Source: a virus (taxonomy: Duplodnaviria > Caudoviricetes). From it: a DNA stretch of 64,000 nucleotides. Every line of letters starts with the position of its first letter. Position 1 is the stretch's first letter. Positions 14,126 to 32,274 of the stretch are shown piece after piece. The stretch is from positions 222,846 through 286,845 of IMG/VR virus record IMGVR_UViG_3300042892_002922. The stretch is one strand, 5' to 3'. The notes beneath the pieces were generated by a model that was not told where the DNA came from, searched no databases, and saw only the letters and a program-made list of their open reading frames with translations. The position numbers and the translations under genes were made by a program.

Positions 14126-16846
14126 ATGAATATATTAGCACATACGTCGTTTATTGGTACCACTGGGTATGCCAATCATGCAAGGTCGTTTTTCTGCGCC
14201 TTAAACAAGTATCACAAAGTAAGGGTTAGAAACCTTACCATTGGTAATAGTTGGAATGATTATAATGAAAAGCCACACGAAGGCGAATCATATATCACTG
14301 ATGAGATGAAGGATATGTTAATCCTTCAAAGTTTGTTTAACGCTGATGGTTCAACTAGTGATTATCCAATTTATAACTTTAAAAAAGATTTTGTTCCAGA
14401 TGTCCACATTGTTTTGGTGGAAACCGACAACATTTATTTTTATCATGATTATGATGGCTATAAAATAGCGTACAATGTTTGGGAATCAACATTATATCCA
14501 GATAATTTCTTCAAGCGACTATTTTACTTTGATGAGGTTTGGGTGCCGACCAAGTGGCAGTTTGATTGTTTAGTTGCGCAAGGGTATCCTGCTGAAAAAA
14601 TATCTATAGTTCCAGAAGGTGTTGATGTTGACACATTTAAACCAATAGAAAAATACCCACAAAGAGATAAGATTAGATTTGTGTATTTTGGTCGTTGGGA
14701 TTATAGAAAAGGAACGACTGAAGTACTCAGAGCTTTTGGTGAGGTCTTTAAAGATGTTGATGATGTAGAATTAATTGCATCTGTTGAGAACCCGTACCCG
14801 AACGATGGTTTAAAGTCAACAGAGGAACGAATTAAAAAACACGAAATTGATACAGAGAAAATAACGTTTCTTAATTTTCCATCGAGAGAAGAATATGTAA
14901 AATACTTACAAGAAGCACATGTATTTGTTTCTTGTGCTAGAAGCGAAGGTTGGAATCTACCGCTTATTGAAGCGATGGCTTGCGGTACGCCGGCCATTTA
15001 TTCTAATTGGGGTGGTCAACTAGAATTTGCTGAAGGTAAAGGTGTTCCGGTTAGTATCAAGGAATTAAGACCTGCTAACATAGAAAGAAAAGAATTTCCA
15101 GGTGAATATTGTGAACCAGATTGGGATGACCTTAAATGGAAAATGAGACAAGCGTACGATTATCAAACAGCTATGTGGATTAAATCCAGATCTGATGCTA
15201 AAGATATTCACAAGAACTTTAATTGGGAAACAATAGCTGAAAACGCATCAAAAATAATCAACTCTAGATTCAAGTCATTTGCATTTGTTACAACTGGTAA
15301 CTTACAATATATGCCGGTTATTGAAAAGTTGGTACAATCATTAATGATGTTTTCAAGACACAAGATAATTGTTTATGGTGTTGATTGTGAAGTGCCGTTT
15401 GATTATCCTAATGTGATTAGAAAAACAATCAATCCACCCAAAATATCAGAACACGATAAATGGTATTGGAAACAATGGGCTTGTTTGGAATCATTAAACG
15501 AAGATTTTGATTATTATATTTGGGTTGACGGTGATGTTGTTGTTAATTACAATATCGATACCGTTACAAAATATTTCAAACATGTTGGTAGATATCCATT
15601 GTCGGATATACATGTTCAAGAAGAATTCTTTGGAACATATGATGACGGTAAAACGCAATTGTTTAATGAAGAGTTAGCTAAAAGATGGGGTGTTGAAAAA
15701 CAACAACCATACATGCATATTTGTTTCTACATTTACAATCAAGGTTCAAGAGCATTTTTTGATGGTATATTGGGATATTATGACACAATGATGAAAGGTA
15801 GCCCTGAAGATTATAAACGATATTTTTTATGGAATGATGAAGGTATTGATAATGCAATAAGATGGAACCACGGTTTTACTAATCATTTACCTATATCAAA
15901 TTTTGACACATCATCATATGATGGGGATGAAGGGTTTATTGATAAAACGTTACATCAGTTTTATAAGTTCTGGAATGAAGATGGTCCACAAAACTTCAAT
16001 AGAATATTTGGGTATCAATTTATACCAGAAGATAAATCAAATATATTATATTTCCACGGGAATAAGAATGCTGAGATATCGGACAAGATGATTGAGTTTA
16101 TTAAAATGAAAAGAGATGATTCATTTTATAAGTCATATTGTTTTTATACTGACGTATATAAATTGGAAAACTTTAATCAATATTTCAATATTGAAGGGGG
16201 TACAATTGAGATAGCAAACAAACATGGTTGGTTTGTTGCCATATTTCACGAGATATTTAATCTTTTGGATTATTATAAAAATAGAGAGAGAAGAATCTTT
16301 GATGGCGACGTTGTAGTTGAGTTGGGTGGGAATATCGGCATCTTTAATAGATGGGCGTACAGTCAAGGTGCTAGCAAAGTTATTTCGTTTGAGCCAGATA
16401 AAAGATACTTTAAACTTCTCTCATTAAATGCTGATCCGCGTTCTGTATTATTCAATGCTGCGGGAAGTGATTCTATTGGTGAATTAAGTTTATTTGAGAG
16501 CACACACATAGGTGGATCTAATTTATTTGGAACACAGGAAGGTGCTAAAGAATATAAGGTAAGAACATATACGCTAGATTATCTTTTTGAAACGGGGTTA
16601 GTTGATAAAATAGATTTTCTAAAGGTAGACATTGAGGGAGCAGAACATCACGCGTTCAAAGGTATCAGCGATGAAAACCTAATGAAAGTTAAAAACATTT
16701 CAATGGAATATCACCATAGCCACTTTGATTATGACGAAGAATTGAGACAAGATTTAATTAATCGTATGGTTAGATTAGGTTTTAACCCCTACACATTGTT
16801 TATGGGTGACAATAACGCACTACAAATGATATATTTTACAAGATGA
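14126..16846 (+). CDS. GT4 glycosyltransferase + second GT-like domain + FkbM methyltransferase fusion
   Basis: GRWDYRKG, SEGWNLPLIEAMACG; middle WVDGD; C-terminal ELGGNIG, LKVDIEGAE. Confidence 0.8.
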   Translation: MNILAHTSFIGTTGYANHARSFFCALNKYHKVRVRNLTIGNSWNDYNEKPHEGESYITDEMKDMLILQSLFNADGSTSDYPIYNFKKDFVPDVHIVLVETDNIYFYHDYDGYKIAYNVWESTLYPDNFFKRLFYFDEVWVPTKWQFDCLVAQGYPAEKISIVPEGVDVDTFKPIEKYPQRDKIRFVYFGRWDYRKGTTEVLRAFGEVFKDVDDVELIASVENPYPNDGLKSTEERIKKHEIDTEKITFLNFPSREEYVKYLQEAHVFVSCARSEGWNLPLIEAMACGTPAIYSNWGGQLEFAEGKGVPVSIKELRPANIERKEFPGEYCEPDWDDLKWKMRQAYDYQTAMWIKSRSDAKDIHKNFNWETIAENASKIINSRFKSFAFVTTGNLQYMPVIEKLVQSLMMFSRHKIIVYGVDCEVPFDYPNVIRKTINPPKISEHDKWYWKQWACLESLNEDFDYYIWVDGDVVVNYNIDTVTKYFKHVGRYPLSDIHVQEEFFGTYDDGKTQLFNEELAKRWGVEKQQPYMHICFYIYNQGSRAFFDGILGYYDTMMKGSPEDYKRYFLWNDEGIDNAIRWNHGFTNHLPISNFDTSSYDGDEGFIDKTLHQFYKFWNEDGPQNFNRIFGYQFIPEDKSNILYFHGNKNAEISDKMIEFIKMKRDDSFYKSYCFYTDVYKLENFNQYFNIEGGTIEIANKHGWFVAIFHEIFNLLDYYKNRERRIFDGDVVVELGGNIGIFNRWAYSQGASKVISFEPDKRYFKLLSLNADPRSVLFNAAGSDSIGELSLFESTHIGGSNLFGTQEGAKEYKVRTYTLDYLFETGLVDKIDFLKVDIEGAEHHAFKGISDENLMKVKNISMEYHHSHFDYDEELRQDLINRMVRLGFNPYTLFMGDNNALQMIYFTR

Positions 16847-17499
16847 GTACACTAGATAAATTAGCAAAAATGCACGGAACTGATAAGAGTTCTGATATAC
16901 ACAATTACTGTGTTAAGTATGAAAAGTATCTACCATTTAATCGTTATGATAAGTTAATGATGATGGAGATTGGTGTGTTAGATGGTAAATCCTTATTAAC
17001 TTGGAAGGATTATTTTTATCGTTCACACATTCTAGGTATTGATATAAATCCTGAATGTAAAAAATACGAAGAAGAAAGAATTACAATTGAGATTGGTTCT
17101 CAAGCTGATGGTGGTTTCTTATCTAGAACCAGCGAACATTATGGGCCATTTGACATCATTTTAGATGATGGTTCACATATGAATGACCATGTAACTTATT
17201 CTTTCCAGCATTTATTTGATTCAGTAAAACCAGGTGGCGTTTATATTGTTGAAGATTGTGCCACGGCTTACTGGGATGAATATGGTGGCGGTTATTTAAA
17301 ACCAAGTACAAGTATAGAATATTTTAAATCCTTATCAGATGATTTAAACTTCCGTGGACTAATGAATCACAACAAACCAAATGTACACGCAAGAAGGGAA
17401 GATTGGTTAATTGAAAATTCAAAAAGCATCCCAACATGTAGAACGGATATTGAATCCATAAATTTCCTAAATGGAATTATTATTGTAACTAAGAGATAA
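16843..17499 (+). CDS. Class I SAM-dependent (sugar O-)methyltransferase, MycE/TylE-like
   Basis: HGTDKS...HNY, EIGV, GIDI, ILDDGSH, GGVYIVED. Confidence 0.75.
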   Translation: MSTLDKLAKMHGTDKSSDIHNYCVKYEKYLPFNRYDKLMMMEIGVLDGKSLLTWKDYFYRSHILGIDINPECKKYEEERITIEIGSQADGGFLSRTSEHYGPFDIILDDGSHMNDHVTYSFQHLFDSVKPGGVYIVEDCATAYWDEYGGGYLKPSTSIEYFKSLSDDLNFRGLMNHNKPNVHARREDWLIENSKSIPTCRTDIESINFLNGIIIVTKR

Positions 17500-19622
17500 T
17501 GTACACACAATTCACTGAAGATATATTTGTAATTGATTGTTGGCTTGACACTAAAGAGAAAGAGCTAGCACTAACTAATTTAATTGAAAGGGTTAAAGTT
17601 TATAATATACCAATAATACTATGTGGTCACTACCCAATTAAACCTGAGTTCCAAGAAATGGTTGATTATTGTATCTATGACAAGAACAATGACATTTTAG
17701 AAGAAAAGGATTTTGAAGAGTATGGTGTTGTTAGTGATAGATGGACAGAGACAGACGATTTTAAAATAAGTAACAAGGTTACATTTCACCATGATTATGC
17801 TATATGGTTAACAATGAAGAATGCTTTTAACCTAGCAAATCAATTGGGTAAGAAATACATACACTTTCTTGAGTACGATAACCTACCAGATGAGATTCAA
17901 TATCGTCAAGCGTTTATTGAATACATCAGACATCACGATGCGGTTGTTTATGAATATAGTGAAGGATCAACTAATGAACCATCACCCTTTTCGGCTACGT
18001 ACATATTTTCAATTAAAACTGACATCGCATTAAGTTTGGTTAATAAGATTAATAGTAAGAAGGAGTTCTTTTTACGAAAACAACATGAATGGCAATTAGA
18101 AAAAACATTCTACCAAACATTACAAACTGTAACTAAAAGAATATTTGTTACAAAATACATAGCAAATGATGACGAGTTAAATCTTTTTGCTGCTTGGAAT
18201 AGGGATGGTATTAATAGAAACGGCGCTAGATTTCAAACATATCTATGTGTTGATGATAATGAAGATTTGTCAATCCATTTTATATCTGGTTTTAATGATA
18301 AACCGGCCACACAAGATTATGTGGTTGAAATCAACTATGGTGATGTTAAAGAGTTTTACAAAATTATCATAGGTAATTTTCATTTAAAAAAACTTGGTAA
18401 ATACATTAAAGGATTACCTGTTATAGTTTATTATCAAGGCGTACAAGTATTTTCTGATTTACTTATTGATGATGTTAAAGAATTTAAACGAAAGAATAAT
18501 ATAACAAGAAAAAACAAAGAGATATCAAAAAACATTAATGTTAATTTTGTTGATGGACCATTCATTGAGATACTAGAAAAAACCGCCAAAGAATATCGTA
18601 TTGAATTTATTGATAATAAAAGTGGAAGAGTTTTACATGAAACAAATATTAAAAGTAATCACTGGGCGAAAGCATCAATAAAATATTATGTTGATTGGTT
18701 AATTAAGGTGAGTGGTGTTGATAACGATTTTTATTTTGAGCATAAATTTAACCCTAATGAAAATAGATTCTTCATTAGTTTTGAGAGCAAATCATTAGGT
18801 GACAGTTTAGCATTTATACCATATGTGGATGAGTTTAGAAAGAAACATAATTGTTCAGTTGTTTGTTCAACATTCTTTAACGATTTATTTAAAAATGAAT
18901 ACCCAGAAATTGAGTTTGTTTCACCTGGTTCAACTGTTAATAACATCTACGGTCTTTATCGAATCGGTATGTTCTATAATGATTCTAAAATGATTGATTA
19001 TGATAAACATTTGACCGACCCCAAAAAGGAGCCATTATTAAAAATTGCATCAGATATTTTAGGTTTAGATTATAAAGAGGTTAGACCTAAGTTACCAAAA
19101 ATTGGTAACACTAAACAGAAATTAGTAACTATAGCAATTCATTCTACAGCACAAGCGAAATATTGGAATAACCCAACTGGTTGGCAAGATGTTGTTGATT
19201 ACTTAATTGGTAAAGGATACGAGGTTAGGTTGTTATCAAAAGAAGAAGACGGTTACATGGGTAACATTCATCCAAAAGGTATAACACAACAACCTGCTGG
19301 TGATTTAAACAGCGTAATTAAGACAATACAAGAATCAGAATTCTTTATTGGGATTAGTAGCGGGTTGAGTTGGTTGGCGTGGGGATGTGGAACACCAACA
19401 ATATTAATATCCGGATTTACAGATGTATTTGCAGAACCATTTCAAAACATTTACCGAGTAATAAATAAAGAAGTTTGTAATAGTTGTTGGTCCGATTATG
19501 ATTTTGACGCCGGTAACTGGAAGTGGTGCCCAGTACATTCAAATACTGATAAACAATTTGAATGTTCTAAACAAATAACATCAAAACAAGTTATAGGGGA
19601 AATTGATAAATTAATTAACTAA
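17499..19622 (+). CDS. TibC/AAH-like (strand-loop-strand O-heptosyltransferase family) glycosyltransferase with N-terminal extension
   Basis: SLGDSLAFIP, HSTAQAKYWNN, FFIGISSGLSWLAW, SGFT, and Cys set CNSCW...WCPVH...FECS. Confidence 0.75.
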   Translation: MYTQFTEDIFVIDCWLDTKEKELALTNLIERVKVYNIPIILCGHYPIKPEFQEMVDYCIYDKNNDILEEKDFEEYGVVSDRWTETDDFKISNKVTFHHDYAIWLTMKNAFNLANQLGKKYIHFLEYDNLPDEIQYRQAFIEYIRHHDAVVYEYSEGSTNEPSPFSATYIFSIKTDIALSLVNKINSKKEFFLRKQHEWQLEKTFYQTLQTVTKRIFVTKYIANDDELNLFAAWNRDGINRNGARFQTYLCVDDNEDLSIHFISGFNDKPATQDYVVEINYGDVKEFYKIIIGNFHLKKLGKYIKGLPVIVYYQGVQVFSDLLIDDVKEFKRKNNITRKNKEISKNINVNFVDGPFIEILEKTAKEYRIEFIDNKSGRVLHETNIKSNHWAKASIKYYVDWLIKVSGVDNDFYFEHKFNPNENRFFISFESKSLGDSLAFIPYVDEFRKKHNCSVVCSTFFNDLFKNEYPEIEFVSPGSTVNNIYGLYRIGMFYNDSKMIDYDKHLTDPKKEPLLKIASDILGLDYKEVRPKLPKIGNTKQKLVTIAIHSTAQAKYWNNPTGWQDVVDYLIGKGYEVRLLSKEEDGYMGNIHPKGITQQPAGDLNSVIKTIQESEFFIGISSGLSWLAWGCGTPTILISGFTDVFAEPFQNIYRVINKEVCNSCWSDYDFDAGNWKWCPVHSNTDKQFECSKQITSKQVIGEIDKLIN

Positions 19623-19638
19623 CATTCAAACGAACAAG

Positions 19639-19645
19639 TATTTAT
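19639..19645 (+). promoter_or_regulatory. TATTTAT motif, candidate late promoter of the tail-fibre unit
   Basis: Intergenic, 22 nt before ATG 19668. Confidence 0.4.
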
Positions 19646-19667
19646 CTAAGTATAATACCATATTTAG

Positions 19668-22600
19668 ATGAATATATTTGACGCACACATATCGGGATCA
19701 TTATCCGTATCAAGTTCAGCCGAAATTTCGGGTGATTTAAAAGTTTTAGGAACAATTAGTGGTTCCTTTAGTGGTGATGGCTCTAATATCACAAACATCC
19801 CAGCGGGTGGTGTTGTTGGACTTAATTTAACACGAATAGCTGACGGTGCATCAACAGCATCAATTTCAAATACAGATGGTTTAAGAATTAATACAAATTC
19901 AGAAATTACTGGTTCATTAATTATAACCGGTGATTTAATTATAAGTGGAACATCTTTTAATGCCGCGACCTCAGGTACATCTGGTACATCAGGAACCTCA
20001 GGTACATCTGGAACCTCAGGGTCTTCAGGTTCAAGTGGAACATCAGGTACTAGTGGAACTAGCGGAACCTCAGGAAGTTCAGGATCAAGTGGAACATCGG
20101 GATCAAGTGGAAGTTCTGGTTCTAGCGGAACGTCAGGTACGAGTGGTTCTTCAGGTACATCTGGCACATCAGGAACCTCAGGTTCATCGGGAAGTTCGGG
20201 TACGTCTGGAACCAGCGGAAGTTCTGGGTCATCAGGTACAAGTGGAACATCTGGTTCATCCGGAAGTTCTGGTTCTAGTGGAACATCGGGATCAAGCGGT
20301 ACCTCAGGCACTAGTGGAACCTCAGGATCAAATGGTAGTTCGGGCACGAGTGGTTCTTCGGGTTCATCTGGAAGTTCGGGTACGTCAGGTACTAGTGGAA
20401 GTAGCGGTTCTTCAGGAACATCTGGTTCTTCAGGAACATCAGGTTCAAGTGGTAGTTCTGGTACTAGTGGAAGTAGTGGTTCTTCAGGAACCGCTGGAAC
20501 TTCAGGAACCTCAGGTTCTAGTGGTAGTTCTGGAACATCAGGTTCTAGTGGATCTAGCGGAACCGCTGGTACAAGTGGTACATCGGGATCTTCTGGTTCT
20601 AACGGGTCGTCAGGTACTTCAGGAACAAGCGGAACATCTGGTTCATCAGGAACTTCAGGTTCATCAGGTTCTAGTGGAACGAGCGGTAGTTCTGGTTCAT
20701 CAGGAACATCAGGTTCTAACGGGTCGTCAGGTACTTCAGGAACAAGCGGAACATCTGGTTCATCAGGAACTTCAGGTTCATCAGGTTCTAGTGGAACATC
20801 TGGGTCTTCAGGGTCAAGCGGTACATCAGGTTCAAGCGGAAGTTCAGGAACATCCGGAAGTTCAGGGTCTAGTGGTACAGCGGGGACATCAGGAACCTCA
20901 GGTTCTAGTGGATCTAGTGGATCTAGCGGAACCGTAACAATGAGCGGAACACAAGACAATGGTGTTCTAACACTTAATGGTTCCTCACCAAACGTAACTG
21001 CGGAAAATAATTTAAGATTTGATGGTTCACTTTTAACCGTTGTTGGTAACGAAACAATATCTGGTTCCTTAATTGTGACAAACAATTTTACAGTATTAGG
21101 TTCATCCTCAATAACATACGTAACATCATCTCAATTAAGAGTTGAAGACAATATTATCACAGTAAACACTGCTAGCCCTGGATCTAGATTTGGTGGACTA
21201 GAAGTTCATGATTCAGGATCGGTTGGTATTGCTACTGGTTCAATTCTTTGGGATTCTGTTAACAATAGATGGATTTATCAAAACTCAAGTGAGGCGGGTT
21301 ATGGTGGCGGTGTATTATTGTCAGGTCCTAGAAGTTCTGGTTCACTAGGTAGTGAATTAACATTAACTAGTGGTAGAGTTGCAAAGTCAGCGGGCGGAGA
21401 CCACTTAAATGATTCAAATATAACAGACAACGGTACAACCGTTTCGATAAATTCAAATACAGAAATCACTGGTTCATTAATTGTTACTGGTGGTAATAAA
21501 TTAGTTGTAAATGCTACTGGTGGTGATGAAGGTGGTGAAATTTTATTAGGGAAAGCGTTAACTAATACAACACTTGTTGGTGAGGGAGTTACAGTAGATA
21601 TTTGGCAAAATAGATTAAGATTTTTTGAACAAGGTGGAACTGCGAGAGGTGCATATATTGATATCTCAAGTTTAGCGGCAGGTGTTGGTACCAACCTGGT
21701 TGGTGCTGGTTCATCAGGTACTTCTGGAACTAGTGGTACCTCTGGCACATCGGGTTCTAGTGGAACATCAGGATCTAATGGTTCGTCTGGTACGTCAGGT
21801 TCATCAGGAACAAGTGGTACAAGTGGTAGTTCAGGATCTAATGGTTCATCTGGCACGTCAGGGTCTTCAGGGTCTAGCGGAACATCGGGATCTAATGGTT
21901 CATCTGGCACGTCAGGAACATCGGGTTCTAATGGTTCTAGTGGAACATCAGGTTCTTCAGGTTCTAGTGGAACATCTGGTTCATCCGGAAGTTCTGGTTC
22001 AAGTGGGACCTCAGGTTCTTCAGGTAGTTCAGGTTCATCCGGAACAAGTGGAAGTTCGGGAACATCAGGTTCTAATGGTTCTAGTGGAACATCAGGTTCT
22101 TCAGGTAGTTCAGGGTCAAGCGGAACGTCTGGGTCTTCAGGTTCTAGTGGTACTTCGGGTACTTCAGGAAGCTCAGGAACAAGTGGGTCTTCAGGTTCTT
22201 CTGGATCTAGTGGAACATCGGGTTCTAACGGATCTAGTGGTACGTCGGGTTCATCAGGTTCTAGCGGTTCTAGTGGAACTTCAGGTTCTTCTGGTTCTAG
22301 CGGAAGTTCAGGAACAAGTGGATCTTCAGGGTCTAGTGGTTCAAGTGGAACCAGTGGTAGTTCGGGGAGTTCTGGTTCAAGTGGAACATCTGGGTCTTCA
22401 GGAAGTTCTGGTTCTAGCGGGTCTTCTGGTACGTCAGGTACTTCTTTTGCTAATAGTTTTAATATAAATCAAAATTTAGGAACAAGTAACTCACCAACAT
22501 TTGGTGGTTTAACAATTACAGGTGGTGGTTCAGTTAGCACAGTATTAACAGGTGCTAACGTTGGTGACTTATTGTATGCATCAATTGCTGATAACGATTA

Positions 22601-23534
22601 TTTCAGATTAAGAGTTGGTGGTACAGCAACAAATGCCGGTTATGTTGAAATAGCAACTTCCGATGATGGTACCGAACCAATATATGTTAGACAATACACG
22701 GGTGTGTTTAGTAGTATAACTAGGACTGCAACATTACTAGATGGTAGTGGTAACACATCATTTCCAGGTACAATTACAGCCCCAACATTCTCAGGAGCAC
22801 TATCCGGAAACGCAACCACTGCAACCACTGCGGGCGCTTTAACATCAATGAACATTTCACAGTTCACAAATAATAGTGCTTACATCACAGGTATATCTTT
22901 TGCAAACGTTTCATCAAAACCAACAACAATAAGTGGATATGGAATTACAGATGCAATTACAACAGCTAACATTGGCTCTCAGTCCGTATCATTTGCAACA
23001 AGTGCTACAAGCGCAACTACTGCGGGTAGTGCACCAAACGCTAGTAATTTAAACGCATCTTATGGTGTATCAACGGGTAATGGAAACGGATTAAAATTTT
23101 GGGGAGGTTCCGACACGTATAAAATTCATATGGGTAGTTCATCTGAATATTATTATGGCCCTGTTACAGATTACTCCATAAAGTGTAATATAGATAGTAA
23201 TAGTTCGACAAGAGGTTTCACTTGGGGACAAAGTGGAGTAACACCAATTGCCGCGTTAAACGTAGGAAATGGAAATATGCAAATCGCAGGTACATTCACA
23301 TCAGGTGGAAGTATATTACCATTAAGTAATGGTACGTTAAACTTAGGTTCATCTGGAGCAAGATGGAACACATTATTTACATCGGATTTATCGTTATCAA
23401 ACGGTATTGGTGATTACACAATTGTTGAGGGTGAGGATGATTTGTTCTTATATAATAATAAAAGAAATAAAGTATATAAATTTATGTTGCAAGAAGTAAA
23501 ACCAGAAGATGCAACACCAAAGCGACCAGAATAA
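19668..23534 (+). CDS. Tail-fibre-like virion protein with two long Ser-Gly-Thr/Ser triplet repeat blocks
   Basis: G-x-x repeats, beta-rich spacers, phage-fibre-like C terminus (LGSSGARWNTLFTSDL...YTIVEGEDDLFL); next to LamG and Gly-rich genes. Confidence 0.7.
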   Translation: MNIFDAHISGSLSVSSSAEISGDLKVLGTISGSFSGDGSNITNIPAGGVVGLNLTRIADGASTASISNTDGLRINTNSEITGSLIITGDLIISGTSFNAATSGTSGTSGTSGTSGTSGSSGSSGTSGTSGTSGTSGSSGSSGTSGSSGSSGSSGTSGTSGSSGTSGTSGTSGSSGSSGTSGTSGSSGSSGTSGTSGSSGSSGSSGTSGSSGTSGTSGTSGSNGSSGTSGSSGSSGSSGTSGTSGSSGSSGTSGSSGTSGSSGSSGTSGSSGSSGTAGTSGTSGSSGSSGTSGSSGSSGTAGTSGTSGSSGSNGSSGTSGTSGTSGSSGTSGSSGSSGTSGSSGSSGTSGSNGSSGTSGTSGTSGSSGTSGSSGSSGTSGSSGSSGTSGSSGSSGTSGSSGSSGTAGTSGTSGSSGSSGSSGTVTMSGTQDNGVLTLNGSSPNVTAENNLRFDGSLLTVVGNETISGSLIVTNNFTVLGSSSITYVTSSQLRVEDNIITVNTASPGSRFGGLEVHDSGSVGIATGSILWDSVNNRWIYQNSSEAGYGGGVLLSGPRSSGSLGSELTLTSGRVAKSAGGDHLNDSNITDNGTTVSINSNTEITGSLIVTGGNKLVVNATGGDEGGEILLGKALTNTTLVGEGVTVDIWQNRLRFFEQGGTARGAYIDISSLAAGVGTNLVGAGSSGTSGTSGTSGTSGSSGTSGSNGSSGTSGSSGTSGTSGSSGSNGSSGTSGSSGSSGTSGSNGSSGTSGTSGSNGSSGTSGSSGSSGTSGSSGSSGSSGTSGSSGSSGSSGTSGSSGTSGSNGSSGTSGSSGSSGSSGTSGSSGSSGTSGTSGSSGTSGSSGSSGSSGTSGSNGSSGTSGSSGSSGSSGTSGSSGSSGSSGTSGSSGSSGSSGTSGSSGSSGSSGTSGSSGSSGSSGSSGTSGTSFANSFNINQNLGTSNSPTFGGLTITGGGSVSTVLTGANVGDLLYASIADNDYFRLRVGGTATNAGYVEIATSDDGTEPIYVRQYTGVFSSITRTATLLDGSGNTSFPGTITAPTFSGALSGNATTATTAGALTSMNISQFTNNSAYITGISFANVSSKPTTISGYGITDAITTANIGSQSVSFATSATSATTAGSAPNASNLNASYGVSTGNGNGLKFWGGSDTYKIHMGSSSEYYYGPVTDYSIKCNIDSNSSTRGFTWGQSGVTPIAALNVGNGNMQIAGTFTSGGSILPLSNGTLNLGSSGARWNTLFTSDLSLSNGIGDYTIVEGEDDLFLYNNKRNKVYKFMLQEVKPEDATPKRPE
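19968..20933 (+). repeat. Coding tandem repeat block 1, (S-G-T/S)n, about 322 codons
   Basis: Directly visible 9-nt periodicity with degenerate synonymous codons. Confidence 0.95.
20595..20797 (+). repeat. 86-bp exact direct repeat (20595-20680 and 20712-20797)
   Basis: ggttctaacgggtcgtcagg...ttctagtggaac occurs twice, offset 117 nt. Confidence 0.85.
21708..22445 (+). repeat. Coding tandem repeat block 2, (S-G-T/S, N-G-S)n, about 246 codons
   Basis: Directly visible. Confidence 0.95.
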
Positions 23535-23583: not shown

Positions 23584-24357
23584 ATGCCTTTAGATATTAA
23601 TAGTAATATAATCAGTTCATCAGATATAACAAGTACTGGTATTTTTAAAACTAAAGTGCAGAGAGATGGGATGGTTTTACATTTAGATGCCGGTGATCTT
23701 GATTCATATCCAGGTAGTGGAACTGCGTGGAATGATTTAAGTGGTAATGGTTATAATTTTATTATAAACGCATCGGCTTACAATTCCTCTGGACCAAAAT
23801 ATATGGACTTTAATGGTTCATATGGTTGCGCAAAGAAAACAAGTTCAGATGTCCCTTTGTCTGGTAATGCAACATGTATTTGCTGGACTAGAGTTAAAAA
23901 TAGTACTGCGGAATGGAGAACTTTATTACGAGGTTTAAGTTCAGGAGCAGACCACCAAGTGATTATTCAATCAGGTGCGTGGGCAATCGGTATGTACGAT
24001 AACACAAATGGTACAGGTTTTAATAGTAACGGATTTAGCCAACAAAGTTTACCAGCATATGGCACATCTTCTTGGGATATGTTAGTTTGGAGATGGTACG
24101 ATGCTGAAGTTCCTTATCATCTCTTTAGTTATAATGAAACTGCGGGGGTTATACGAGGATCAATTTCAAGCTCAAATGCAAGATTTAAACATGGTTTTTG
24201 TTCTGTTGGCGCATACAACAACGGAGACCAAAATAACCCAAATGCATCAAGTCAACCTTGGGGTGACATTGGAATGATATCACTATATGATAGAGTTTTA
24301 CATCCTTACGAAATAAACGAATATTATCAAGCAACAAGAGCTAGATTTGGTAGATAA
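23584..24357 (+). CDS. LamG/concanavalin-like virion protein
   Basis: LHLDAGDLDSYPGSGTAWNDLSGNG; YDRVL...EINEYYQATRARFG. Confidence 0.7.
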   Translation: MPLDINSNIISSSDITSTGIFKTKVQRDGMVLHLDAGDLDSYPGSGTAWNDLSGNGYNFIINASAYNSSGPKYMDFNGSYGCAKKTSSDVPLSGNATCICWTRVKNSTAEWRTLLRGLSSGADHQVIIQSGAWAIGMYDNTNGTGFNSNGFSQQSLPAYGTSSWDMLVWRWYDAEVPYHLFSYNETAGVIRGSISSSNARFKHGFCSVGAYNNGDQNNPNASSQPWGDIGMISLYDRVLHPYEINEYYQATRARFGR

Positions 24358-24366
24358 AATAATTTT

Positions 24367-25194
24367 ATGGGTATAGATATTGGCGGAAACGTATTTGATG
24401 CAACTGATTTTAACCCAAGCGGTGAGGCGGCAAGCCCTGCGGTTGTGACCAGAGGATTGGTGTTATGGTTAGATAGTGGAAACAATGCATCATATATTAA
24501 CACATCCAACTATTATGATTGTGGATATGGATGTCAATACTACTCATCAAATCCCGGCTGTACGAATTGTAACACTCAATGGAAAGATATGAGTGGTAAT
24601 GGGTACGATGGAACATTCAACGGTGCTACGGCCATCTCATATAATGTTGGAGGTGGGTCAATTTATTTTAGTGGGTCTCCTGATTTTGTGAGTGCTGGTA
24701 ATATAGGTTCATTCTCAACATTTACTGTTGAAATTTGGTTTAAATCAGATTCAGTTTCTAACTATAAAAATCCAATCGATTGTAATTTTTTAGTGTTTAA
24801 TGGAGGGGCTAGTGGATATAGTAATATTGGACCAAGATTGGAACAAGATTCAAATGGAACACTAGGTTGGGTTGTTGGAGATGCTGCGGGAAACTATACT
24901 GGAGTTAATGTTGTACCATCAGGATTGAGTTCCTCTGGAATACATTGTGCCGTTATTACTAAAACAGGTGCAAGTAGTTTTTTAAGTTATTACAATGGGA
25001 CTAATGCATCAAGTTTAACTTTTTCAAATTGGACGGGAACTATGGGTAACGTAAATATTGGCAGAGGATTTAGCACAAGTGCGGAAAGATGGTTTAATGG
25101 TGGTGTGTCAATCGTAAGAATATATAATAGAGCATTATCCGCATCCGAAATTTTACAAAATTATAATAATGGAAGAGCAAGGTTTGGAGTTTAA
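24367..25194 (+). CDS. LamG-like virion protein with 4-Cys insert
   Basis: LVLWLDSG...WKDMSGNG; RIYNRALSASEILQNYNNGRARFG. Confidence 0.75.
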   Translation: MGIDIGGNVFDATDFNPSGEAASPAVVTRGLVLWLDSGNNASYINTSNYYDCGYGCQYYSSNPGCTNCNTQWKDMSGNGYDGTFNGATAISYNVGGGSIYFSGSPDFVSAGNIGSFSTFTVEIWFKSDSVSNYKNPIDCNFLVFNGGASGYSNIGPRLEQDSNGTLGWVVGDAAGNYTGVNVVPSGLSSSGIHCAVITKTGASSFLSYYNGTNASSLTFSNWTGTMGNVNIGRGFSTSAERWFNGGVSIVRIYNRALSASEILQNYNNGRARFGV

Positions 25195-25208
25195 AATATT
25201 TAATTTAT

Positions 25209-26852
25209 ATGCCAGTACAGTTTAGAAGAACAAACATTTTAGATCCATACTCTTGGGCGGTAGGTTCAGGGGGTACTGGTGCTTTTGGTCAAAATGGTAG
25301 TACTGATGAAAACGAAAGAGTAATCGGCACAGACCCTTTTGGTAATAGTTCAGTTGTCTGGGAATCTAGACCAAACGGTTCCGCAGCTGATGATGGTGGT
25401 TGGGGCACAGGATTCTATGATGTGGATGAATATTCATTATATAGATGGTCAGTTTGGGTTAAAAGAACAACATCAAGTGCTGGAGGAACATCATATCTGG
25501 GACTTTACGGTAGTCCTAATGCTGTTATTAGAATAGATAACGGAGCACAAGAAGGTAACCCATATTTTGAATGTAGTGGTACTGGTGCGTATACTCAAAA
25601 CGTTTGGTATCTACTTGTTGGACATTGTTTTCCATCTAATTACACTGGTGGTGCAACAACACACCCTGATTCTGGTAGATACATAACAAGTGGTAGAAAT
25701 GGTAGTGTTAATTTTTGTAACATTGGCGGTGACGTAAAATGGTATCCGGGAACAACAGGTGGATATCATAGAGTATATCATTATTATTGTGGTGATAACA
25801 CAACCAGATTACAATGGTTTGACCCAAGATTAGATAAATGTGATGGTTCAGAACCAACAATATCCGATTTATTAAACAACAGACAAGCAAAGTTAGAATC
25901 TACAACCGTGACAGTTGAAGGTGCCGCACTTAAACAACAAAAAGTAGTTGCAACAGGTGGTGTTATAACAACTGTTGGTGAGTATCGAGTTCATAGATTT
26001 AATAGTAGTGGAACATTTACCCTATCATCACTTAGATCGGGTTCAATAGAGGTTGAATATCTTATTGCTGCTGGTGGAGGTGGAGGTGGAACAAATATGG
26101 GTGGTGGCGGAGGTGGAGGAGGCGTTCTATTAGGAACAACAATTCTAACCCCAACTTCATATGTAATAACTGTTGGTGGAGGTGGCGCAGGTGCGCCCGC
26201 GGGAACCACAGGTGGACACCCAACCGTAACAGGTGCTAATGGTGGTAATTCTTCATTTAATGGTTTAACTGCTATAGGTGGTGGCTGGGGTGGCGTTTCA
26301 TATAACACACAAGGATTAGGTATACATTTTGGTAATTCAGGTGGTTCAGGTGGTGGAGCTTCGGGTTATAATAATGATGGTGCAGCACCTGGAGCATATG
26401 GTTCAGGAGCGGGTACTTCAGGACAAGGATTTAGAGGTGGTTATCAAGGTAACTCATACTACTCAGGTGGTGGTGGAGGTGCAGGCGCCGCAGGTGCAGA
26501 TGGAAACAATAGACCCGATGGTGGTGCCGGTAAATTAACGGGAATTTTAGGTAAACCATTTTATTTCGGAGGCGGTGGTGGTGGCGGAAGTTACTCACTA
26601 TCTACAGGTGGTTATGGTGGTGTTGGCGGAGGTGGTGGTGGTGCGTTAGGTACCGCACTTGGTGGAAGAAATGGTTTAGCGTGGGGTTCTGATGGTGGTG
26701 GAGGCGCATGTTGTTCATGGGCTAACACACCTGGCGGAAATGGCGCAACAAACACTGGTGGTGGCGGCGGAGGTGGTGCTCACTATAATGCAACAAATAA
26801 GGGTGGAGATGGTGGAAGTGGAATAGTTATAATAAGATACAAATATAGATAA
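25209..26852 (+). CDS. Glycine-rich domain virion protein
   Basis: ATGG...HRFNSSGTF, EYLIAAGGGGGG, GGSGIVIIRY. Confidence 0.75.
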   Translation: MPVQFRRTNILDPYSWAVGSGGTGAFGQNGSTDENERVIGTDPFGNSSVVWESRPNGSAADDGGWGTGFYDVDEYSLYRWSVWVKRTTSSAGGTSYLGLYGSPNAVIRIDNGAQEGNPYFECSGTGAYTQNVWYLLVGHCFPSNYTGGATTHPDSGRYITSGRNGSVNFCNIGGDVKWYPGTTGGYHRVYHYYCGDNTTRLQWFDPRLDKCDGSEPTISDLLNNRQAKLESTTVTVEGAALKQQKVVATGGVITTVGEYRVHRFNSSGTFTLSSLRSGSIEVEYLIAAGGGGGGTNMGGGGGGGGVLLGTTILTPTSYVITVGGGGAGAPAGTTGGHPTVTGANGGNSSFNGLTAIGGGWGGVSYNTQGLGIHFGNSGGSGGGASGYNNDGAAPGAYGSGAGTSGQGFRGGYQGNSYYSGGGGGAGAAGADGNNRPDGGAGKLTGILGKPFYFGGGGGGGSYSLSTGGYGGVGGGGGGALGTALGGRNGLAWGSDGGGGACCSWANTPGGNGATNTGGGGGGGAHYNATNKGGDGGSGIVIIRYKYR

Positions 26853-26853
26853 T

Positions 26854-27243
26854 ATGGCACATTTTGCACAAATAGATTCTAACAACGTAGTTGTTGATAT
26901 TTTAGTTGTTCCCGATGAACAACAACATAGAGGAAATGATTATTTATCCAGTGATTTACAATTAGGTGGAACATGGATTCAAACATCATATAATGGTAAT
27001 ATAAGAAAAATGTATGCCGGAATTGGGTATTGGTATTTACCTGAATTAGACATTTTTTTACCACCCAAACCATTTGAATCGTGGTCTTTAGATACAGTTA
27101 ATCAAATTTGGAAAGCACCAATTGAATGCCCTGAACAAGAAGAAGGTAAAGTTCATATTTGGGACGAAGAACCCCAACAATGGAGAACCGAAATTTTACC
27201 AATTGCAGATGTTAATAATTTACCAGAACAAGCATTACCTTAA
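26854..27243 (+). CDS. Tail-fibre-associated small protein
   Basis: MAHFAQID...WIQTSYNGNIRKMYAGIGY...F.PPKPFESW, a type that typically follows Gly-rich fibre genes. Confidence 0.6.
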   Translation: MAHFAQIDSNNVVVDILVVPDEQQHRGNDYLSSDLQLGGTWIQTSYNGNIRKMYAGIGYWYLPELDIFLPPKPFESWSLDTVNQIWKAPIECPEQEEGKVHIWDEEPQQWRTEILPIADVNNLPEQALP

Positions 27244-27495: not shown

Positions 27496-27762
27496 ATGAA
27501 ACAAGAAACTAAAGGTAAATTTATTAAATCAGAAAAAACTTTGGTAGTTCTAGAAACTATCGGTGTAATAATGAGAATTATGGCATTCGGTATGTTATCC
27601 ATATTAAACAAGGATACACCGTTTTTATTGATGTGGATATGGAATACTATCGATGCGTTAATATTAACTTATTGTGCCTGGGAAAGAAGCAACACACCAT
27701 ATATCATACTTAACATATTCTGGTTAATAGTTGGTGCTGTTGGGATTTATAACAGTATTTAA
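27496..27762 (+). CDS. Small membrane protein
   Basis: Three hydrophobic segments. Confidence 0.55.
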   Translation: MKQETKGKFIKSEKTLVVLETIGVIMRIMAFGMLSILNKDTPFLLMWIWNTIDALILTYCAWERSNTPYIILNIFWLIVGAVGIYNSI

Positions 27763-29691: not shown

Positions 29692-29697
29692 TATTTT

Positions 29698-30465: not shown

Positions 30466-31019
30466 AATAATATTTTTGAAACTGATGGAAAATTTTGATT
30501 CAAAACCTCGTAGTTTATTTTATTCTTGATTGAATTTATTGGTATTTTATTATACTTTTTCATCCATTCAATATTATCTCTTTCTATAGAACCACCTTCA
30601 AATATCATTGTTGCACCATTCTCAAGATTATTTTTAACCTTATTAAAAACATCTGTTATTGTGTTACCATCATTTGATATGTCTAAATGAAGTAAATCAA
30701 AATCTTCAACATCCCAGTCACTTATATTCATTTGTTTTAATTCAATAAAATCAAGTAATGAATACTTTTTAAGCGATTCCTTTGTTTTATCAATTGTTGA
30801 ATGTTTATATGGATAGGCATCCCACAAATCATAACAGATTATTTTACCACCGTTATTAATTTCTTGTAACGCCATTCCCATACTAATTGCAGAATAACCA
30901 TTTAACGTACCGAATTCAATTATTTTCTTTGGTTTTAATTCTAAAACTAAATTATATAATGTTTGTCCGATATCATGTTCACTATACGAACTTTCAACCT
31001 CAGGATTTTTATAAATCAT
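30462..31019 (-). CDS. Class I SAM-dependent methyltransferase
   Basis: IIEFGTLNGYS, LLHLDI. Confidence 0.7.
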   Translation of the reverse strand: MIYKNPEVESSYSEHDIGQTLYNLVLELKPKKIIEFGTLNGYSAISMGMALQEINNGGKIICYDLWDAYPYKHSTIDKTKESLKKYSLLDFIELKQMNISDWDVEDFDLLHLDISNDGNTITDVFNKVKNNLENGATMIFEGGSIERDNIEWMKKYNKIPINSIKNKINYEVLNQNFPSVSKILL

Positions 31020-31020
31020 A

Positions 31021-32205: not shown

Positions 32206-32274
32206 TTACTATTTTATTTATTACAATTTAATTATTTTTTTTTATATTATAAAGGGGTTTAAATGCACCCCCAT

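What the first reader, a model, noticed from the sequence alone, without database searches (positions are those of the whole stretch)
17499..23534. TibC/AAH-like protein heptosyltransferase placed directly before a Ser-packed tail-fibre repeat
Seen: the C-terminal ~280 aa of 17499-19622 have SLGD, HSTAQAKYW, SSGLSWLAW and four Cys (C660, C663, C677, C689; CNSCW...WCPVH...FEC). Established: this matches the iron-binding TibC/AAH family, which O-heptosylates Ser residues on repetitive autotransporter adhesins. The very next gene has about 570 residues of S-G-T/S triplets. Inference: the phage glycosylates its own tail fibre densely on Ser, giving a mucin-like virion coat for receptor binding, protease resistance or shielding.
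Basis: partly seen in the sequence, partly recalled or inferred. Interest (0 to 1): 0.8.

Follow-up and report, generated by a model that had tools for sequence, protein, structure and literature searches.

The report
Phage enzyme that sugar-coats collagen-like fibres
A large freshwater phage encodes a true relative of the bacterial TibC/Aah protein-glycosylating enzymes directly in front of a fibre gene made of 189 proline-free Gly-Ser/Thr-Ser triplets, and comparison with hundreds of phages and bacteria indicates that this enzyme branch is specialised for such collagen-like repeats, so the phage most likely sugar-coats its own fibre, though no glycan has been measured.

Summary
Residues 342-704 of ORF 17499-19622 match TIGR04414 (Aah/TibC) at 296 bits (cut-off 200). 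They match TibC in sequence (E 1.7e-54) and fold (TM 0.86). The catalytic Asp, the phosphate- and sugar-binding Thr/Lys/Trp and all four iron-binding Cys are kept. The N-terminal half is a second, GT-A-fold transferase.

The next gene encodes 567 residues of uninterrupted Gly-X-Y (X = Ser/Thr, Y = Ser), without Pro or charged residues.

The pairing is not chance:
- 30 of 42 dereplicated phage homologues have a Ser/Thr collagen-like gene within 10 kb, and 16 have one adjacent.
- The enzyme occurs in 12 of 44 viral records with Ser/Thr triplet runs, against 0 of 42 with other triplet runs.
- In Methylococcales and Burkholderiales, stand-alone homologues sit beside small secreted (Gly-Thr-Ser)n proteins.

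All collagen-linked enzymes form one clade (support 100), separate from the autotransporter-linked TibC/Aah enzymes. That clade has replaced the adenine-contacting Arg286 with Val/Ile/Thr/Leu, and no heptose pathway is encoded nearby. The sugar is therefore uncertain.

Best reading (about 0.7): the fibre's Ser/Thr are O-glycosylated in the cytoplasm, and fused or neighbouring transferases and methylases then extend the glycan.

I found no published description. This scan has reached the same reading on at least 15 other genomes.

The parts
14126..16846 (+). GT4 glycosyltransferase fused to an FkbM-type methyltransferase (906 aa). Its stop overlaps the start of the next gene.
   Evidence: Pfam Glycos_transf_1 1.1e-16 and Methyltransf_21 1.6e-16; phrog_2170 and phrog_8156. 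In related phages the same two domains are fused to the TibC-like domain in one polypeptide (L007, L035, L056).
16843..17499 (+). Methyltransf_24-class methyltransferase (218 aa). It abuts the next gene.
   Evidence: Pfam PF13578 8.6e-06; phrog_21658 2.1e-28. The same domain is fused to the TibC-like enzyme in L004 and L039.
17499..18521 (+). N-terminal half of the 707-aa enzyme: a GT-A-fold nucleotide-sugar transferase domain (about aa 1-240, invariant Glu125 and Asp127 in HFLEYDNLPD) followed by a beta-sandwich (aa 245-337).
   Evidence: No Pfam or PHROG family. AlphaFold model pLDDT 86. All top Foldseek PDB matches are GT-A transferases (3cgx, GT6, GlcAT-P, the LH3 transferase domain), E about 1e-5 and TM up to 0.56 by target. 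904 representative relatives, stand-alone or fused.
18522..19622 (+). C-terminal TibC/Aah-like (BAHT) protein O-glycosyltransferase domain, aa 342-707: beta-barrel, GT-B catalytic domain and four-Cys iron finger.
   Evidence: TIGR04414 296 bits, cut-off 200. TibC 4rap/4rb4 E 1.7e-54. Model pLDDT 88.6, Foldseek to TibC E 8e-35 and TM 0.86, against WaaC/WaaF at E 1e-8 and TM about 0.5. The functional residues are conserved except the Arg286 equivalent, which is Val606.
19668..23534 (+). Collagen-like fibre protein (1288 aa), the proposed acceptor.
   Evidence: Pfam Collagen 8.5e-78. PHROG tail-fibre families. The N-terminal and middle parts are shared with the fibres that follow the enzyme in L003-L005, L007-L009 and other loci, while the C-terminal 362 aa found no match among the fetched loci. 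Database homologues of the C-terminal part are 700-2200 aa proteins on large phage contigs, many with the Peptidase_S74 chaperone domain.
19974..20936 (+). Gly-X-Y run 1: 107 uninterrupted triplets (aa 103-423).
   Evidence: X = Ser 54 / Thr 53; Y = Ser 100, Asn 3, Ala 3, Val 1.
21708..22445 (+). Gly-X-Y run 2: 82 uninterrupted triplets (aa 681-926).
   Evidence: X = Ser 52 / Thr 30; Y = Ser 76, Asn 6.
23584..27243 (+). Four further co-directional genes of the fibre cluster (257, 275, 547 and 129 aa).
   Evidence: The first two genes match PHROG families that include one labelled virion structural protein (phrog_8510); all four match PHROG families of unknown function. Also Pfam Laminin_G_3 and Gly_rich_2.
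27759..36198 (-). Convergent sugar operon: 2 GT2, 2 GT4, a TOD1/MUCI70-like transferase, an NAD epimerase/dehydratase, a DegT aminotransferase and an O-methyltransferase.
   Evidence: Pfam and PHROG hits. It may supply or extend the glycan. The link to the fibre rests on position only.

Best explanation
The 707-aa protein is a bifunctional protein glycosyltransferase made in the infected cell. Its C-terminal BAHT-type domain transfers a first sugar from a nucleotide-sugar onto Ser/Thr hydroxyls of the Gly-Ser/Thr-Ser triplets of the fibre encoded by the next gene. Up to about 365 acceptor hydroxyls per chain are available. Transfer probably happens before or while the chains trimerise. The fused GT-A domain, the upstream GT4-FkbM protein and the Methyltransf_24 enzyme then extend and O-methylate the glycan. 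The result is a densely glycosylated collagen-like shaft on the virion.

Shown here: family membership, fold and catalytic residues of the enzyme; the repeat architecture of the fibre; and the conserved, clade-specific gene pairing.

Inferred: that the fibre is the acceptor, the order of the steps, and that the protein is a tail fibre.

Unknown: the sugar. Heptose is possible, but the ADP-specific contact is lost. The benefit to the phage is also unknown.
For: (1) Enzyme identity. TIGR04414 scores 296 bits against a cut-off of 200, whereas LPS heptosyltransferase models score at most 29 bits against cut-offs of 170-467. TibC matches at E 1.7e-54 over TibC residues 22-386. Foldseek gives TM 0.86 to TibC and about 0.5 to WaaC/WaaF. 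Asp110, Thr226, Lys230, Trp305 and the four Cys are invariant in 42 phage homologues (residue roles from PMC4358343).

(2) Forward synteny. Of 42 clusters (90% identity) of phage homologues, 30 have a Gly-X-Y ORF with 66-100% Ser+Thr at X/Y within the fetched locus. 16 have one within 700 bp. In the closest relatives it is the next gene on the same strand, 51-67 nt away. One 273-kb, 93%-complete record has a single collagen gene, and it is adjacent to the enzyme.

(3) Reverse test with control. TIGR04414 is present in 12 of 44 viral records with Ser/Thr triplet runs (6 of 10 records at least 60% complete). It is present in 0 of 42 records with non-Ser/Thr triplet runs. Fisher p = 2e-4.

(4) Bacteria. 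Stand-alone 370-430 aa homologues in Methylobacter, Methylomicrobium, Polaromonas and Burkholderiaceae lie 35-225 nt from small signal-peptide or lipoprotein ORFs with 12-39 Gly-Ser/Thr-Ser/Thr/Ala triplets. In M. luteus this is a two-gene cassette among housekeeping genes.

(5) Phylogeny. One clade of 75 rows (SH-aLRT 100, stem 0.64) holds all 53 rows with a collagen-like neighbour. None of the 47 rows outside it has one, and those include Aah next to AIDA-I.

(6) Rosetta-stone fusions. In other phages the BAHT domain is fused to GT4, FkbM, Methyltransf_24, CmcI-like and GT25-like domains. These are the same kinds that are separate upstream genes here.

(7) Precedent. Bacillus BclA and Riftia cuticle collagen are O-glycosylated collagen-like proteins (PMC8968730, PMC11766948).
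Against: No glycan has been observed, and everything rests on comparative genomics.

TibC's known acceptors are Ser in beta-helical strand-loop-strand repeats, a structure very different from Gly-X-Y.

Twelve of the 42 phage clusters show no collagen ORF within the fetched locus. Several of these have truncated flanks. One complete genome has its nearest collagen gene 17 kb away.

Four of 10 nearly complete records with Ser/Thr collagen lack the enzyme.

The published view of glycosyltransferases in the tail-fibre hypervariable region of aquatic myophages is host LPS modification (PMC7029224).

The complex prediction gave no answer.

Rows in the tree are related, so the counts overstate the number of independent events.
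Confidence: 0.7

Rival explanations
1. The enzyme and the flanking sugar genes remodel the host surface (LPS, capsule or host surface proteins) during infection, for example to block superinfection. They sit beside fibre genes only because accessory genes accumulate in the hypervariable host-recognition region.
For: This is the published interpretation for glycosyltransferases clustered with tail-fibre genes in pelagimyophages and cyanomyophages (PMC7029224). The window holds at least 8 transferase genes and many sugar-tailoring enzymes. Some of these may well act on non-protein acceptors.
Against: LPS heptosyltransferase models score far below their cut-offs, and the fold matches TibC, not WaaC. 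The association is with one repeat type, Ser/Thr Gly-X-Y (12/44 against 0/42), not with fibre genes in general. The same pairing exists as an isolated two-gene cassette in bacterial chromosomes, where no phage hypervariable region is involved.
Confidence: 0.1
2. The enzyme is a protein glycosyltransferase, but its main acceptor is another protein. This could be another virion protein (capsid, tail tube, the other Ser/Thr-rich proteins at 23584-27243) or a collagen-like fibre encoded elsewhere. The adjacent fibre would be at most one of several acceptors.
For: Related genomes carry up to six collagen-like genes spread over the genome, and in some the enzyme is not next to any. Only about 20% of this genome is in hand. 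Mycobacteriophages glycosylate capsid and tail-tube proteins (my own knowledge; the title is cited in 24 library papers).
Against: In the closest relatives the Ser/Thr collagen-like gene is the very next gene at 51-67 nt. It is the only collagen-like gene in the 80.6-kb record. The bacterial cassettes offer no other candidate acceptor.
Confidence: 0.12
3. The TibC-like domain no longer transfers sugar. It serves as a folding or assembly factor for the fibre, or the gene pair reflects shared regulation only.
For: The adenine-contacting Arg286, whose Ala mutant abolished or largely diminished TibC activity (PMC4358343), is missing. No donor pathway for heptose is encoded.
Against: The catalytic Asp, the beta-phosphate-binding Thr and Lys, the sugar-contacting Trp and the iron finger are invariant across 42 phage and 33 bacterial members of the clade. 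That argues for purifying selection on catalysis. Fusion to further transferases and sugar methylases makes sense only if a glycan is built.
Confidence: 0.05

Closest known systems
TibC and Aah, bacterial autotransporter heptosyltransferases (BAHT family; TIGR04414; PDB 4RAP/4RB4; PMC4358343)
   Same: Same family by HMM above the curated cut-off. 32% structure-based identity and TM 0.86. Same beta-barrel + GT-B + four-Cys iron-finger architecture. Same catalytic Asp, phosphate-binding Thr/Lys and sugar-contacting Trp. Enzyme gene placed immediately before the gene of a highly repetitive Ser-rich surface protein.
   Different: Carried by a phage. Fused to a GT-A transferase. The neighbour is a Gly-X-Y collagen-like fibre, not an autotransporter beta-helix with 19-residue repeats. 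It belongs to a separate, long-stemmed clade. The adenine-contacting Arg286 is replaced by Val (Val/Ile/Thr/Leu across the clade), so ADP-heptose use is not assured.
BclA-type exosporium collagen-like glycoproteins of Bacillus and Clostridioides (PMC8968730)
   Same: A prokaryotic Gly-X-Y protein with hydroxy amino acids in the triplets that is O-glycosylated and forms surface filaments.
   Different: BclA triplets are Pro-rich (Gly-Pro-Thr; my own knowledge). Its glycosyltransferases are unrelated to BAHT enzymes. The repeats here have no Pro at all.
Riftia pachyptila cuticle collagen (Mann et al. 1996, cited in PMC11766948)
   Same: Glycosylated Thr, rather than hydroxyproline, occupies the stabilising positions of a collagen triple helix. 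This is a precedent for sugar-stabilised collagen.
   Different: An animal protein with galactosylated Thr in the Y position next to Pro (my own knowledge). No relation to the enzymes here.
Mycobacteriophage virion glycosylation (Freeman et al. 2023, recalled from my own knowledge; the title is cited in 24 papers of the library)
   Same: Phage-encoded transferases glycosylate the phage's own structural proteins in the host cytoplasm.
   Different: The acceptors are capsid and tail-tube proteins, not collagen-like fibres. The transferase families and the host phylum are different.
'LPS' glycosyltransferase islands in the tail-fibre hypervariable region of pelagimyophages and cyanomyophages (PMC7029224)
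   Same: The same layout: fibre genes with collagen repeats embedded among many transferases and sugar-tailoring genes in large aquatic phages.
   Different: Those genes were interpreted as host O-antigen modifiers. Here one of them is a protein O-glycosyltransferase whose clade tracks the fibre repeat.

Membership tests
BAHT (TibC/Aah; TIGR04414) | Score above the curated whole-protein cut-off of the equivalog model, over its full length | tested here: met
   296 bits against 200, model positions 8-373 of 374. 298 bits in the six-frame search of the record.
BAHT (TibC/Aah; TIGR04414) | Fold: N-terminal beta-barrel, GT-B catalytic domain and iron-finger insertion, closest to TibC rather than to LPS GT9 enzymes | tested here: met
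   Model pLDDT 88.6. Foldseek to 4rap_A gives E 7.7e-35 and TM 0.86/0.83. WaaC, WaaF and 3tov give E about 1e-8 and TM 0.41-0.59.
BAHT (TibC/Aah; TIGR04414) | Catalytic base Asp110, beta-phosphate contacts Thr226 and Lys230, and sugar contact Trp305 | tested here: met
   Asp435, Thr550, Lys554 and the first Trp of GLSWLAW. All are invariant in 42 phage sequences. Residue roles are from PMC4358343.
BAHT (TibC/Aah; TIGR04414) | Four Cys coordinating iron (TibC Cys339/342/358/370) | tested here: met
   Cys660/663/677/689 align to them and are invariant in all 122 sequences compared. Metal binding itself was not testable.
BAHT (TibC/Aah; TIGR04414) | Arg286 contacting adenine N1, the stated basis of ADP-sugar specificity | tested here: not met
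   Val606 in the window. Val/Ile/Thr/Leu in 41 of the 42 phage sequences tallied. In the 33 bacterial sequences nearest the phage enzymes (L203-L236), Ile/Val/Leu in 27 of the 30 tallied and Arg in 3. Arg in all 45 of the more distant bacterial relatives (L237-L281, none with a collagen-like neighbour) and in 2/2 Aah.
BAHT (TibC/Aah; TIGR04414) | Acceptor is an autotransporter passenger with strand-loop-strand repeats, encoded next to the enzyme | tested here: not met
   The neighbour is a Gly-X-Y fibre. Aah on plasmids sits before AIDA-I. No collagen-like neighbour was found in the 47 rows outside the collagen-linked clade.
BAHT (TibC/Aah; TIGR04414) | Transfers heptose from ADP-heptose; dodecameric ring | not testable with these tools
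   No gmhA or rfaE domain I/II in the 80.6-kb record. A gmhA-like hit in 1 of 12 related records lies in a NeuB/CMP-sugar cluster. None in the complete Microcystis phage Mel-JY01.
LPS heptosyltransferases (GT9: WaaC/RfaC, WaaF, WaaQ/RfaQ) | Score above the family cut-offs; fold closest to WaaC/WaaF | tested here: not met
   RfaQ 28.8 bits against 467. Heptosyltransferase I 22.1 against 185. RfaC 18.6 against 437. Heptosyltransferase III 14.2 against 170. TM about 0.5.
Collagen-like proteins (Pfam PF01391) | Long uninterrupted Gly-X-Y register | tested here: met
   107 and 82 consecutive triplets; 256 bits.
Collagen-like proteins (Pfam PF01391) | Forms a triple helix | not testable with these tools
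   There is no Pro and no charged residue in 567 residues, so the usual stabilising features are absent.
GT-A fold glycosyltransferases (N-terminal domain) | GT-A Rossmann-like fold with an acidic metal/nucleotide-binding motif after the central strand | tested here: inconclusive
   All top Foldseek matches are GT-A enzymes, but at E about 1e-5 and TM 0.3-0.56. Glu125 and Asp127 are invariant and Asp131 nearly so, after strand 120-125. No sequence family matched.
Phage tail fibre | Virion protein attached to the tail, with a conserved N-terminus and a variable distal tip | tested here: inconclusive
   The PHROG tail-fibre hits rest on the collagen repeats. The N-terminal and middle parts are shared with neighbours' fibres, while the C-terminal 362 aa matched nothing among the fetched loci. 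Its database homologues are mosaic fibre-like proteins, many with the Peptidase_S74 chaperone. No tail or baseplate genes are in the window.

The most novel reading that the evidence does not exclude
The collagen-linked BAHT clade defines a new kind of glycoprotein, a 'glyco-collagen'. In it, dense O-glycans on Ser/Thr at nearly every X and Y position replace proline, hydroxyproline and charge pairs as the force that stabilises, or rigidifies and shields, a proline-free triple helix. The clade would have switched to a nucleotide-sugar other than ADP-heptose. The module would be used both by large aquatic phages for their fibres and by methanotrophs and Burkholderiales for secreted (Gly-Thr-Ser)n proteins.
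Probability: 0.25. Interest if true: 0.9.

Novelty: new variant of a known kind. Interest (0 to 1): 0.75.

Why it matters
It would give the BAHT family, known only from autotransporter adhesins of pathogens, a second and probably much larger substrate class. The database search returned more than 5000 sequence clusters of homologues, and the closest 120 are all phage-type multi-domain proteins.

It would add collagen-like fibres to the very short list of phage virion proteins known to be glycosylated.

It would also change how the many 'LPS-like' transferase islands next to fibre genes in abundant freshwater and marine phages are read: as virion-decorating machinery rather than host-surface modifiers. 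This bears on host range, adsorption, grazing and decay of phage particles in lakes.

A proline-free, sugar-stabilised collagen would also interest protein designers.

The gene is near-identical in at least 24 lake or freshwater metagenome runs from 21 studies, so the phage is common.

Tried and rejected
- Complex prediction of the BAHT domain with fibre residues 95-160 gave no answer: score 0.11, mark 0.34, controls not run. It is not evidence either way.
- The promoter/terminator scan found as many promoter-like sites as shuffles do and no terminator between the two genes. A possible late-promoter-like word before the fibre gene (CTAAGTATAATA) is not enriched.
- Heptose pathway searches found no gmhA and no rfaE domain I or II in the 80.6-kb record. 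One sub-threshold gmhA-like hit in 12 related records proved to be a SIS isomerase inside a NeuB/cytidylyltransferase cluster. Phage Mel-JY01 has none.
- Expression: no RNA run holds this DNA. Lake metatranscriptome contigs of relatives give only short scraps over the enzyme gene and many short matches over the repeats, which cannot show transcription.
- PHROGs has no family for the enzyme.
- The Atlas search of the fibre tip gave only weak leads.
- The megablast search found no close phage genome.
- LPS/GT9 lipid transferase reading: rejected on scores and fold.
- 'Mucin-like' reading of the repeat: replaced by Gly-X-Y collagen-like, because Gly is at every third position for 107 and 82 triplets without interruption.
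- Literature searches for a phage TibC-like enzyme, a phage O-heptosyltransferase, or glycosylated collagen-like phage fibres found nothing relevant. There is no paper on Mel-JY01 in the library.
Full report
**What is there.** The window is 64 kb of an 80.6-kb IMG/VR virus record that CheckV rates about 20% complete. GC is about 31%. Close homologues of the enzyme lie on contigs of up to 339 kb. The enzyme gene and the start of the fibre gene (window 17499-19700) occur almost letter for letter in at least 24 lake or freshwater metagenome runs from 21 studies. This is therefore a common, large freshwater phage.

ORF 17499-19622 (707 aa) and ORF 19668-23534 (1288 aa) lie on the + strand, 45 nt apart, with no terminator-like site between them. 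Upstream genes overlap or abut: 14126-16846 is a GT4 + FkbM methyltransferase fusion and 16843-17499 is a Methyltransf_24 enzyme. Further upstream lie a carbamoyltransferase, radical SAM enzymes and 2OG-Fe(II) oxygenases. Downstream are four more fibre-cluster genes (23584-27243). After them, on the minus strand, is a convergent operon with four GT2/GT4 transferases, a TOD1/MUCI70-like transferase, an epimerase/dehydratase, a DegT aminotransferase and an O-methyltransferase. The fibre genes thus sit inside a sugar-enzyme island of about 36 kb.

**The enzyme.** Residues 342-704 match the NCBIfam equivalog TIGR04414 (hepto_Aah_TibC) at 296 bits, against a cut-off of 200, over positions 8-373 of 374. 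LPS heptosyltransferase models reach at most 29 bits against cut-offs of 170-467. TibC (4rap/4rb4) aligns at E 1.7e-54 over its residues 22-386. An AlphaFold model built on 42 phage homologues (pLDDT 88.6) has TibC as its best PDB match (E 8e-35, TM 0.86, 32% identity). WaaC and WaaF follow at E 1e-8 and TM about 0.5.

I mapped the residues defined in the TibC structure paper (PMC4358343):
- the catalytic Asp110 is Asp435;
- Thr226 and Lys230 (beta-phosphate contacts) are Thr550 and Lys554;
- Trp305 (heptose O4 contact) is the first Trp of GLSWLAW;
- the iron ligands Cys339/342/358/370 are Cys660/663/677/689.

All of these are invariant in the phage set.

There is one exception. Arg286 contacts adenine N1 and was given as the basis of ADP-sugar specificity. 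Its Ala mutant abolished or largely diminished activity. In the window this position is Val606.

**The N-terminal half.** Residues 1-341 have no Pfam or PHROG family. A model (pLDDT 86) shows a Rossmann-like domain followed by a beta-sandwich. Every top Foldseek match is a GT-A glycosyltransferase (3cgx, GT6 enzymes, GlcAT-P, the transferase domain of lysyl hydroxylase LH3), at E about 1e-5. Glu125 and Asp127 (HFLEYDNLPD) are invariant. A profile search found 904 representative relatives, either stand-alone at about 330 aa or fused. The protein is therefore most likely a two-transferase fusion.

**The fibre.** The product of 19668-23534 has two uninterrupted Gly-X-Y runs, of 107 and 82 triplets, 567 residues in all. 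X is Ser or Thr. Y is Ser in 176 of 189 triplets. No Pro, Lys, Arg, Asp, Glu or Gln occurs. Pfam Collagen scores 256 bits. Ser is encoded by a mixture of TCA, TCT, AGT, AGC and TCG, and the DNA repeats are degenerate. The repeat is therefore maintained at the protein level.

The N-terminal and middle non-repeat parts are shared with the fibres that follow the enzyme in related loci. The C-terminal 362 aa matched nothing among the fetched loci. Database homologues of that part are 700-2200 aa mosaic proteins on large phage contigs, many with the Peptidase_S74 chaperone domain typical of phage fibres and spikes. 'Fibre' is well supported. 'Tail' is an inference.

**Is the pairing more than chance?**

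*Forward.* A scan of IMG/VR found 235 stretches encoding relatives, and 80 loci were fetched. Dereplicated at 90% identity these give 42 clusters. Thirty have a Gly-X-Y ORF of at least 10 triplets within the locus, always with 66-100% Ser+Thr at X/Y and the rest mostly Asn. Sixteen have it within 700 bp. In the nearest relatives it is the next gene on the same strand, 51-67 nt away. Whole-record checks show 1 to 6 collagen-like genes per 180-270 kb. In one 93%-complete record the only such gene is adjacent to the enzyme. With a few such genes among roughly 250, chance adjacency would be a few percent. The observed figure is 38%.

*Reverse.* I scanned for eight consecutive triplets encoding Gly followed by two Ser/Thr-type codons. 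Of 44 records that could be searched whole, 12 carry TIGR04414, including 6 of the 10 that are at least 60% complete.

*Control.* The same scan for triplets whose X/Y codons start with C or G gave 0 of 42 records. Fisher p is 2e-4. Allowing for the smaller total length of the control set gives 1e-3. The control records are smaller and probably come from other phage groups, so the control is imperfect.

**Bacteria and phylogeny.** A scan of one genome per species found 317 relatives, and 79 loci were kept. Those at 40-45% identity come from Methylobacter, Methylomicrobium, other Methylococcales, Polaromonas, Burkholderiaceae and some gammaproteobacterial MAGs. They are stand-alone genes of 370-430 aa. 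Each lies 35-225 nt from a small ORF (100-330 aa) that starts with a signal peptide or lipobox and carries 12-39 Gly-Ser/Thr-Ser/Thr/Ala triplets. In the Methylobacter luteus chromosome this is a two-gene cassette between mfd and housekeeping genes, with no phage genes and no other transferase.

Relatives at 34-38% identity (Lentisphaerota, Selenomonadales and others) have no collagen-like neighbour, and many sit near ORFs of 900-2600 aa. Aah on Escherichia and Salmonella plasmids sits before AIDA-I.

In a maximum-likelihood tree of 122 domains rooted on Aah, one clade of 75 rows (SH-aLRT 100, stem length 0.64) contains all 53 rows with a collagen-like ORF within 5 kb. None of the 47 rows outside it has one.

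The Arg286 column follows almost the same split. It is Arg in all 45 of the more distant bacterial relatives (L237-L281, none with a collagen-like neighbour) and in both Aah sequences. It is Val, Ile, Thr or Leu in 41 of the 42 phage sequences tallied. In the 33 bacterial sequences nearest the phage enzymes (L203-L236) it is Ile, Val or Leu in 27 of the 30 tallied and Arg in 3.

The association with Ser/Thr Gly-X-Y repeats is thus a property of a distinct branch of the family. It holds across very different protein contexts, which points to the repeat itself as the acceptor.

**Fusions.** In other phages the BAHT domain is fused to GT4, FkbM, Methyltransf_24, CmcI-like (rhamnosyl O-methyltransferase type) and GT25-like domains in many combinations. 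In phage Mel-JY01 it is part of a 1226-aa protein annotated as an FkbM methyltransferase that also carries the GT-A-like domain. The window has the same domain types as separate, translationally coupled upstream genes. This suggests that one product is made: a short, O-methylated glycan whose first sugar is attached by the BAHT domain.

**Which sugar?** This is open. The pocket keeps the Trp that contacts heptose O4 in TibC but has lost the adenine contact. No gmhA or rfaE genes occur in the 80.6-kb record or in Mel-JY01. In 12 related records the only gmhA-like hit is below the cut-off and lies in a NeuB/cytidylyltransferase cluster. I did not see that pattern here. I put heptose at roughly one in three.

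**Mechanism proposed.** In the infected cell the BAHT domain glycosylates Ser/Thr of the nascent or not yet trimerised repeat. Collagen modifications generally cannot occur once the trimer has formed (PMC8968730). The GT-A domain and the upstream GT4-FkbM and methyltransferase proteins extend and methylate the glycan. The fibre then assembles into the virion.

The benefit is inferred only. Possible benefits are stiffening or stabilisation of a proline-free helix, protection from proteases or grazers, or a role in adsorption. For the first there is a precedent: glycosylated Thr stabilises Riftia cuticle collagen (Mann 1996, cited in PMC11766948), and BclA is a glycosylated collagen-like protein (PMC8968730).

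**Comparison with what is known, and novelty.** The enzyme passes the sequence, fold and catalytic-residue tests of the BAHT family. It fails two defining features: the ADP contact and the autotransporter acceptor. I therefore file it as a distinct, collagen-linked variant of that family.

Searches of the paper library for phage TibC-like enzymes, phage O-heptosyltransferases or glycosylated collagen-like phage fibres found nothing. The nearest published discussion reads transferases in the fibre region of pelagimyophages as host LPS modifiers (PMC7029224). JGI's automatic annotation already names these proteins 'autotransporter strand-loop-strand O-heptosyltransferase', so family recognition is not new. 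The acceptor class is.

Within this scan the same pairing has been noted in at least 15 other genomes, and several follow-up reports reached the same reading. Those are not independent experimental evidence.

**Limits.** No glycan, protein or transcript has been observed. The metatranscriptome matches are scraps. Only a fifth of the genome is available. Tree rows and loci are related, so the counts overstate independent events. The quick tree has some long branches. The complex prediction gave no answer.

Noticed in passing
L212:6920-9122 (Methylobacter luteus IMV-B-3098); also L206, L211, L218, L230, L234: Bacterial chromosomes carry a two-gene cassette: a secreted or lipoprotein (Gly-Thr-Ser/Ala)n protein next to a stand-alone enzyme of the same clade. 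In M. luteus it sits among housekeeping genes (mfd, DUF2845, glcE/F-like, miaB, phoH). This gives a cultivable bacterial model for the same chemistry.
   Followed up: partly
L002:1-3049 (Microcystis phage Mel-JY01, PP395634): A 1016-codon open frame on the + strand holds 176 Gly-X-Y triplets (84% Ser/Thr). It overlaps two annotated minus-strand 'hypothetical protein' CDSs (1-651, 739-2298). The deposited annotation may have called shadow frames of a collagen-like fibre gene that is cut by the record's start.
   Followed up: no
window 6484-7068 and 12233-12763: Two 2OG-Fe(II) oxygenases of Pfam family PF13640 (2OG-FeII_Oxy_3) lie upstream. By my recollection this Pfam family includes prolyl 4-hydroxylase-type enzymes, yet the collagen-like repeats contain no proline or lysine. 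Their substrate is unexplained.
   Followed up: no
L403:4699-9330 (record behind L056, G001:C1:87698-92329): A related phage that carries the enzyme encodes a nonulosonic-acid-type cluster: NeuB, a SIS isomerase, a short-chain dehydrogenase, two aminotransferases and a CMP-sugar cytidylyltransferase. Some of these phages may therefore make sialic-acid-like sugars.
   Followed up: partly
L203, L204, L208, L209, L215, L229 (MAG contigs labelled Bacteroidetes, Rickettsiaceae, Paceibacteria, Muiribacterium, Bacteroides, Ignavibacteriaceae): Most of these low-GC MAG contigs carry phage-type multi-domain versions of the enzyme (620-960 aa), some with large Ser/Thr collagen ORFs. They fall inside the collagen-linked clade, several of them among the phage sequences, in the tree. 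They are probably phage contigs binned with bacterial genomes.
   Followed up: no
L011:11155-13353: In a close relative (59% identity) the gene after the enzyme is a Ser/Thr-rich fibre-like ORF (733 aa, 28% Ser+Thr) without long Gly-X-Y runs. The repeat can apparently be lost or gained while the gene order stays.
   Followed up: no
window 19948-20979 and 21668-22355: Contigs from four lake metatranscriptomes pile up on the Ser/Thr triplet runs at 80-95% identity, from many different sequences. Such repeat genes are therefore abundant in lake RNA libraries, although DNA carry-over cannot be excluded.
   Followed up: partly
window 38275-39468, 46759-47391, 54070-55098: A thymidylate synthase with a long insertion relative to its PHROG profile, and two DNA methyltransferases. 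These are consistent with a large phage that modifies its DNA.
   Followed up: no
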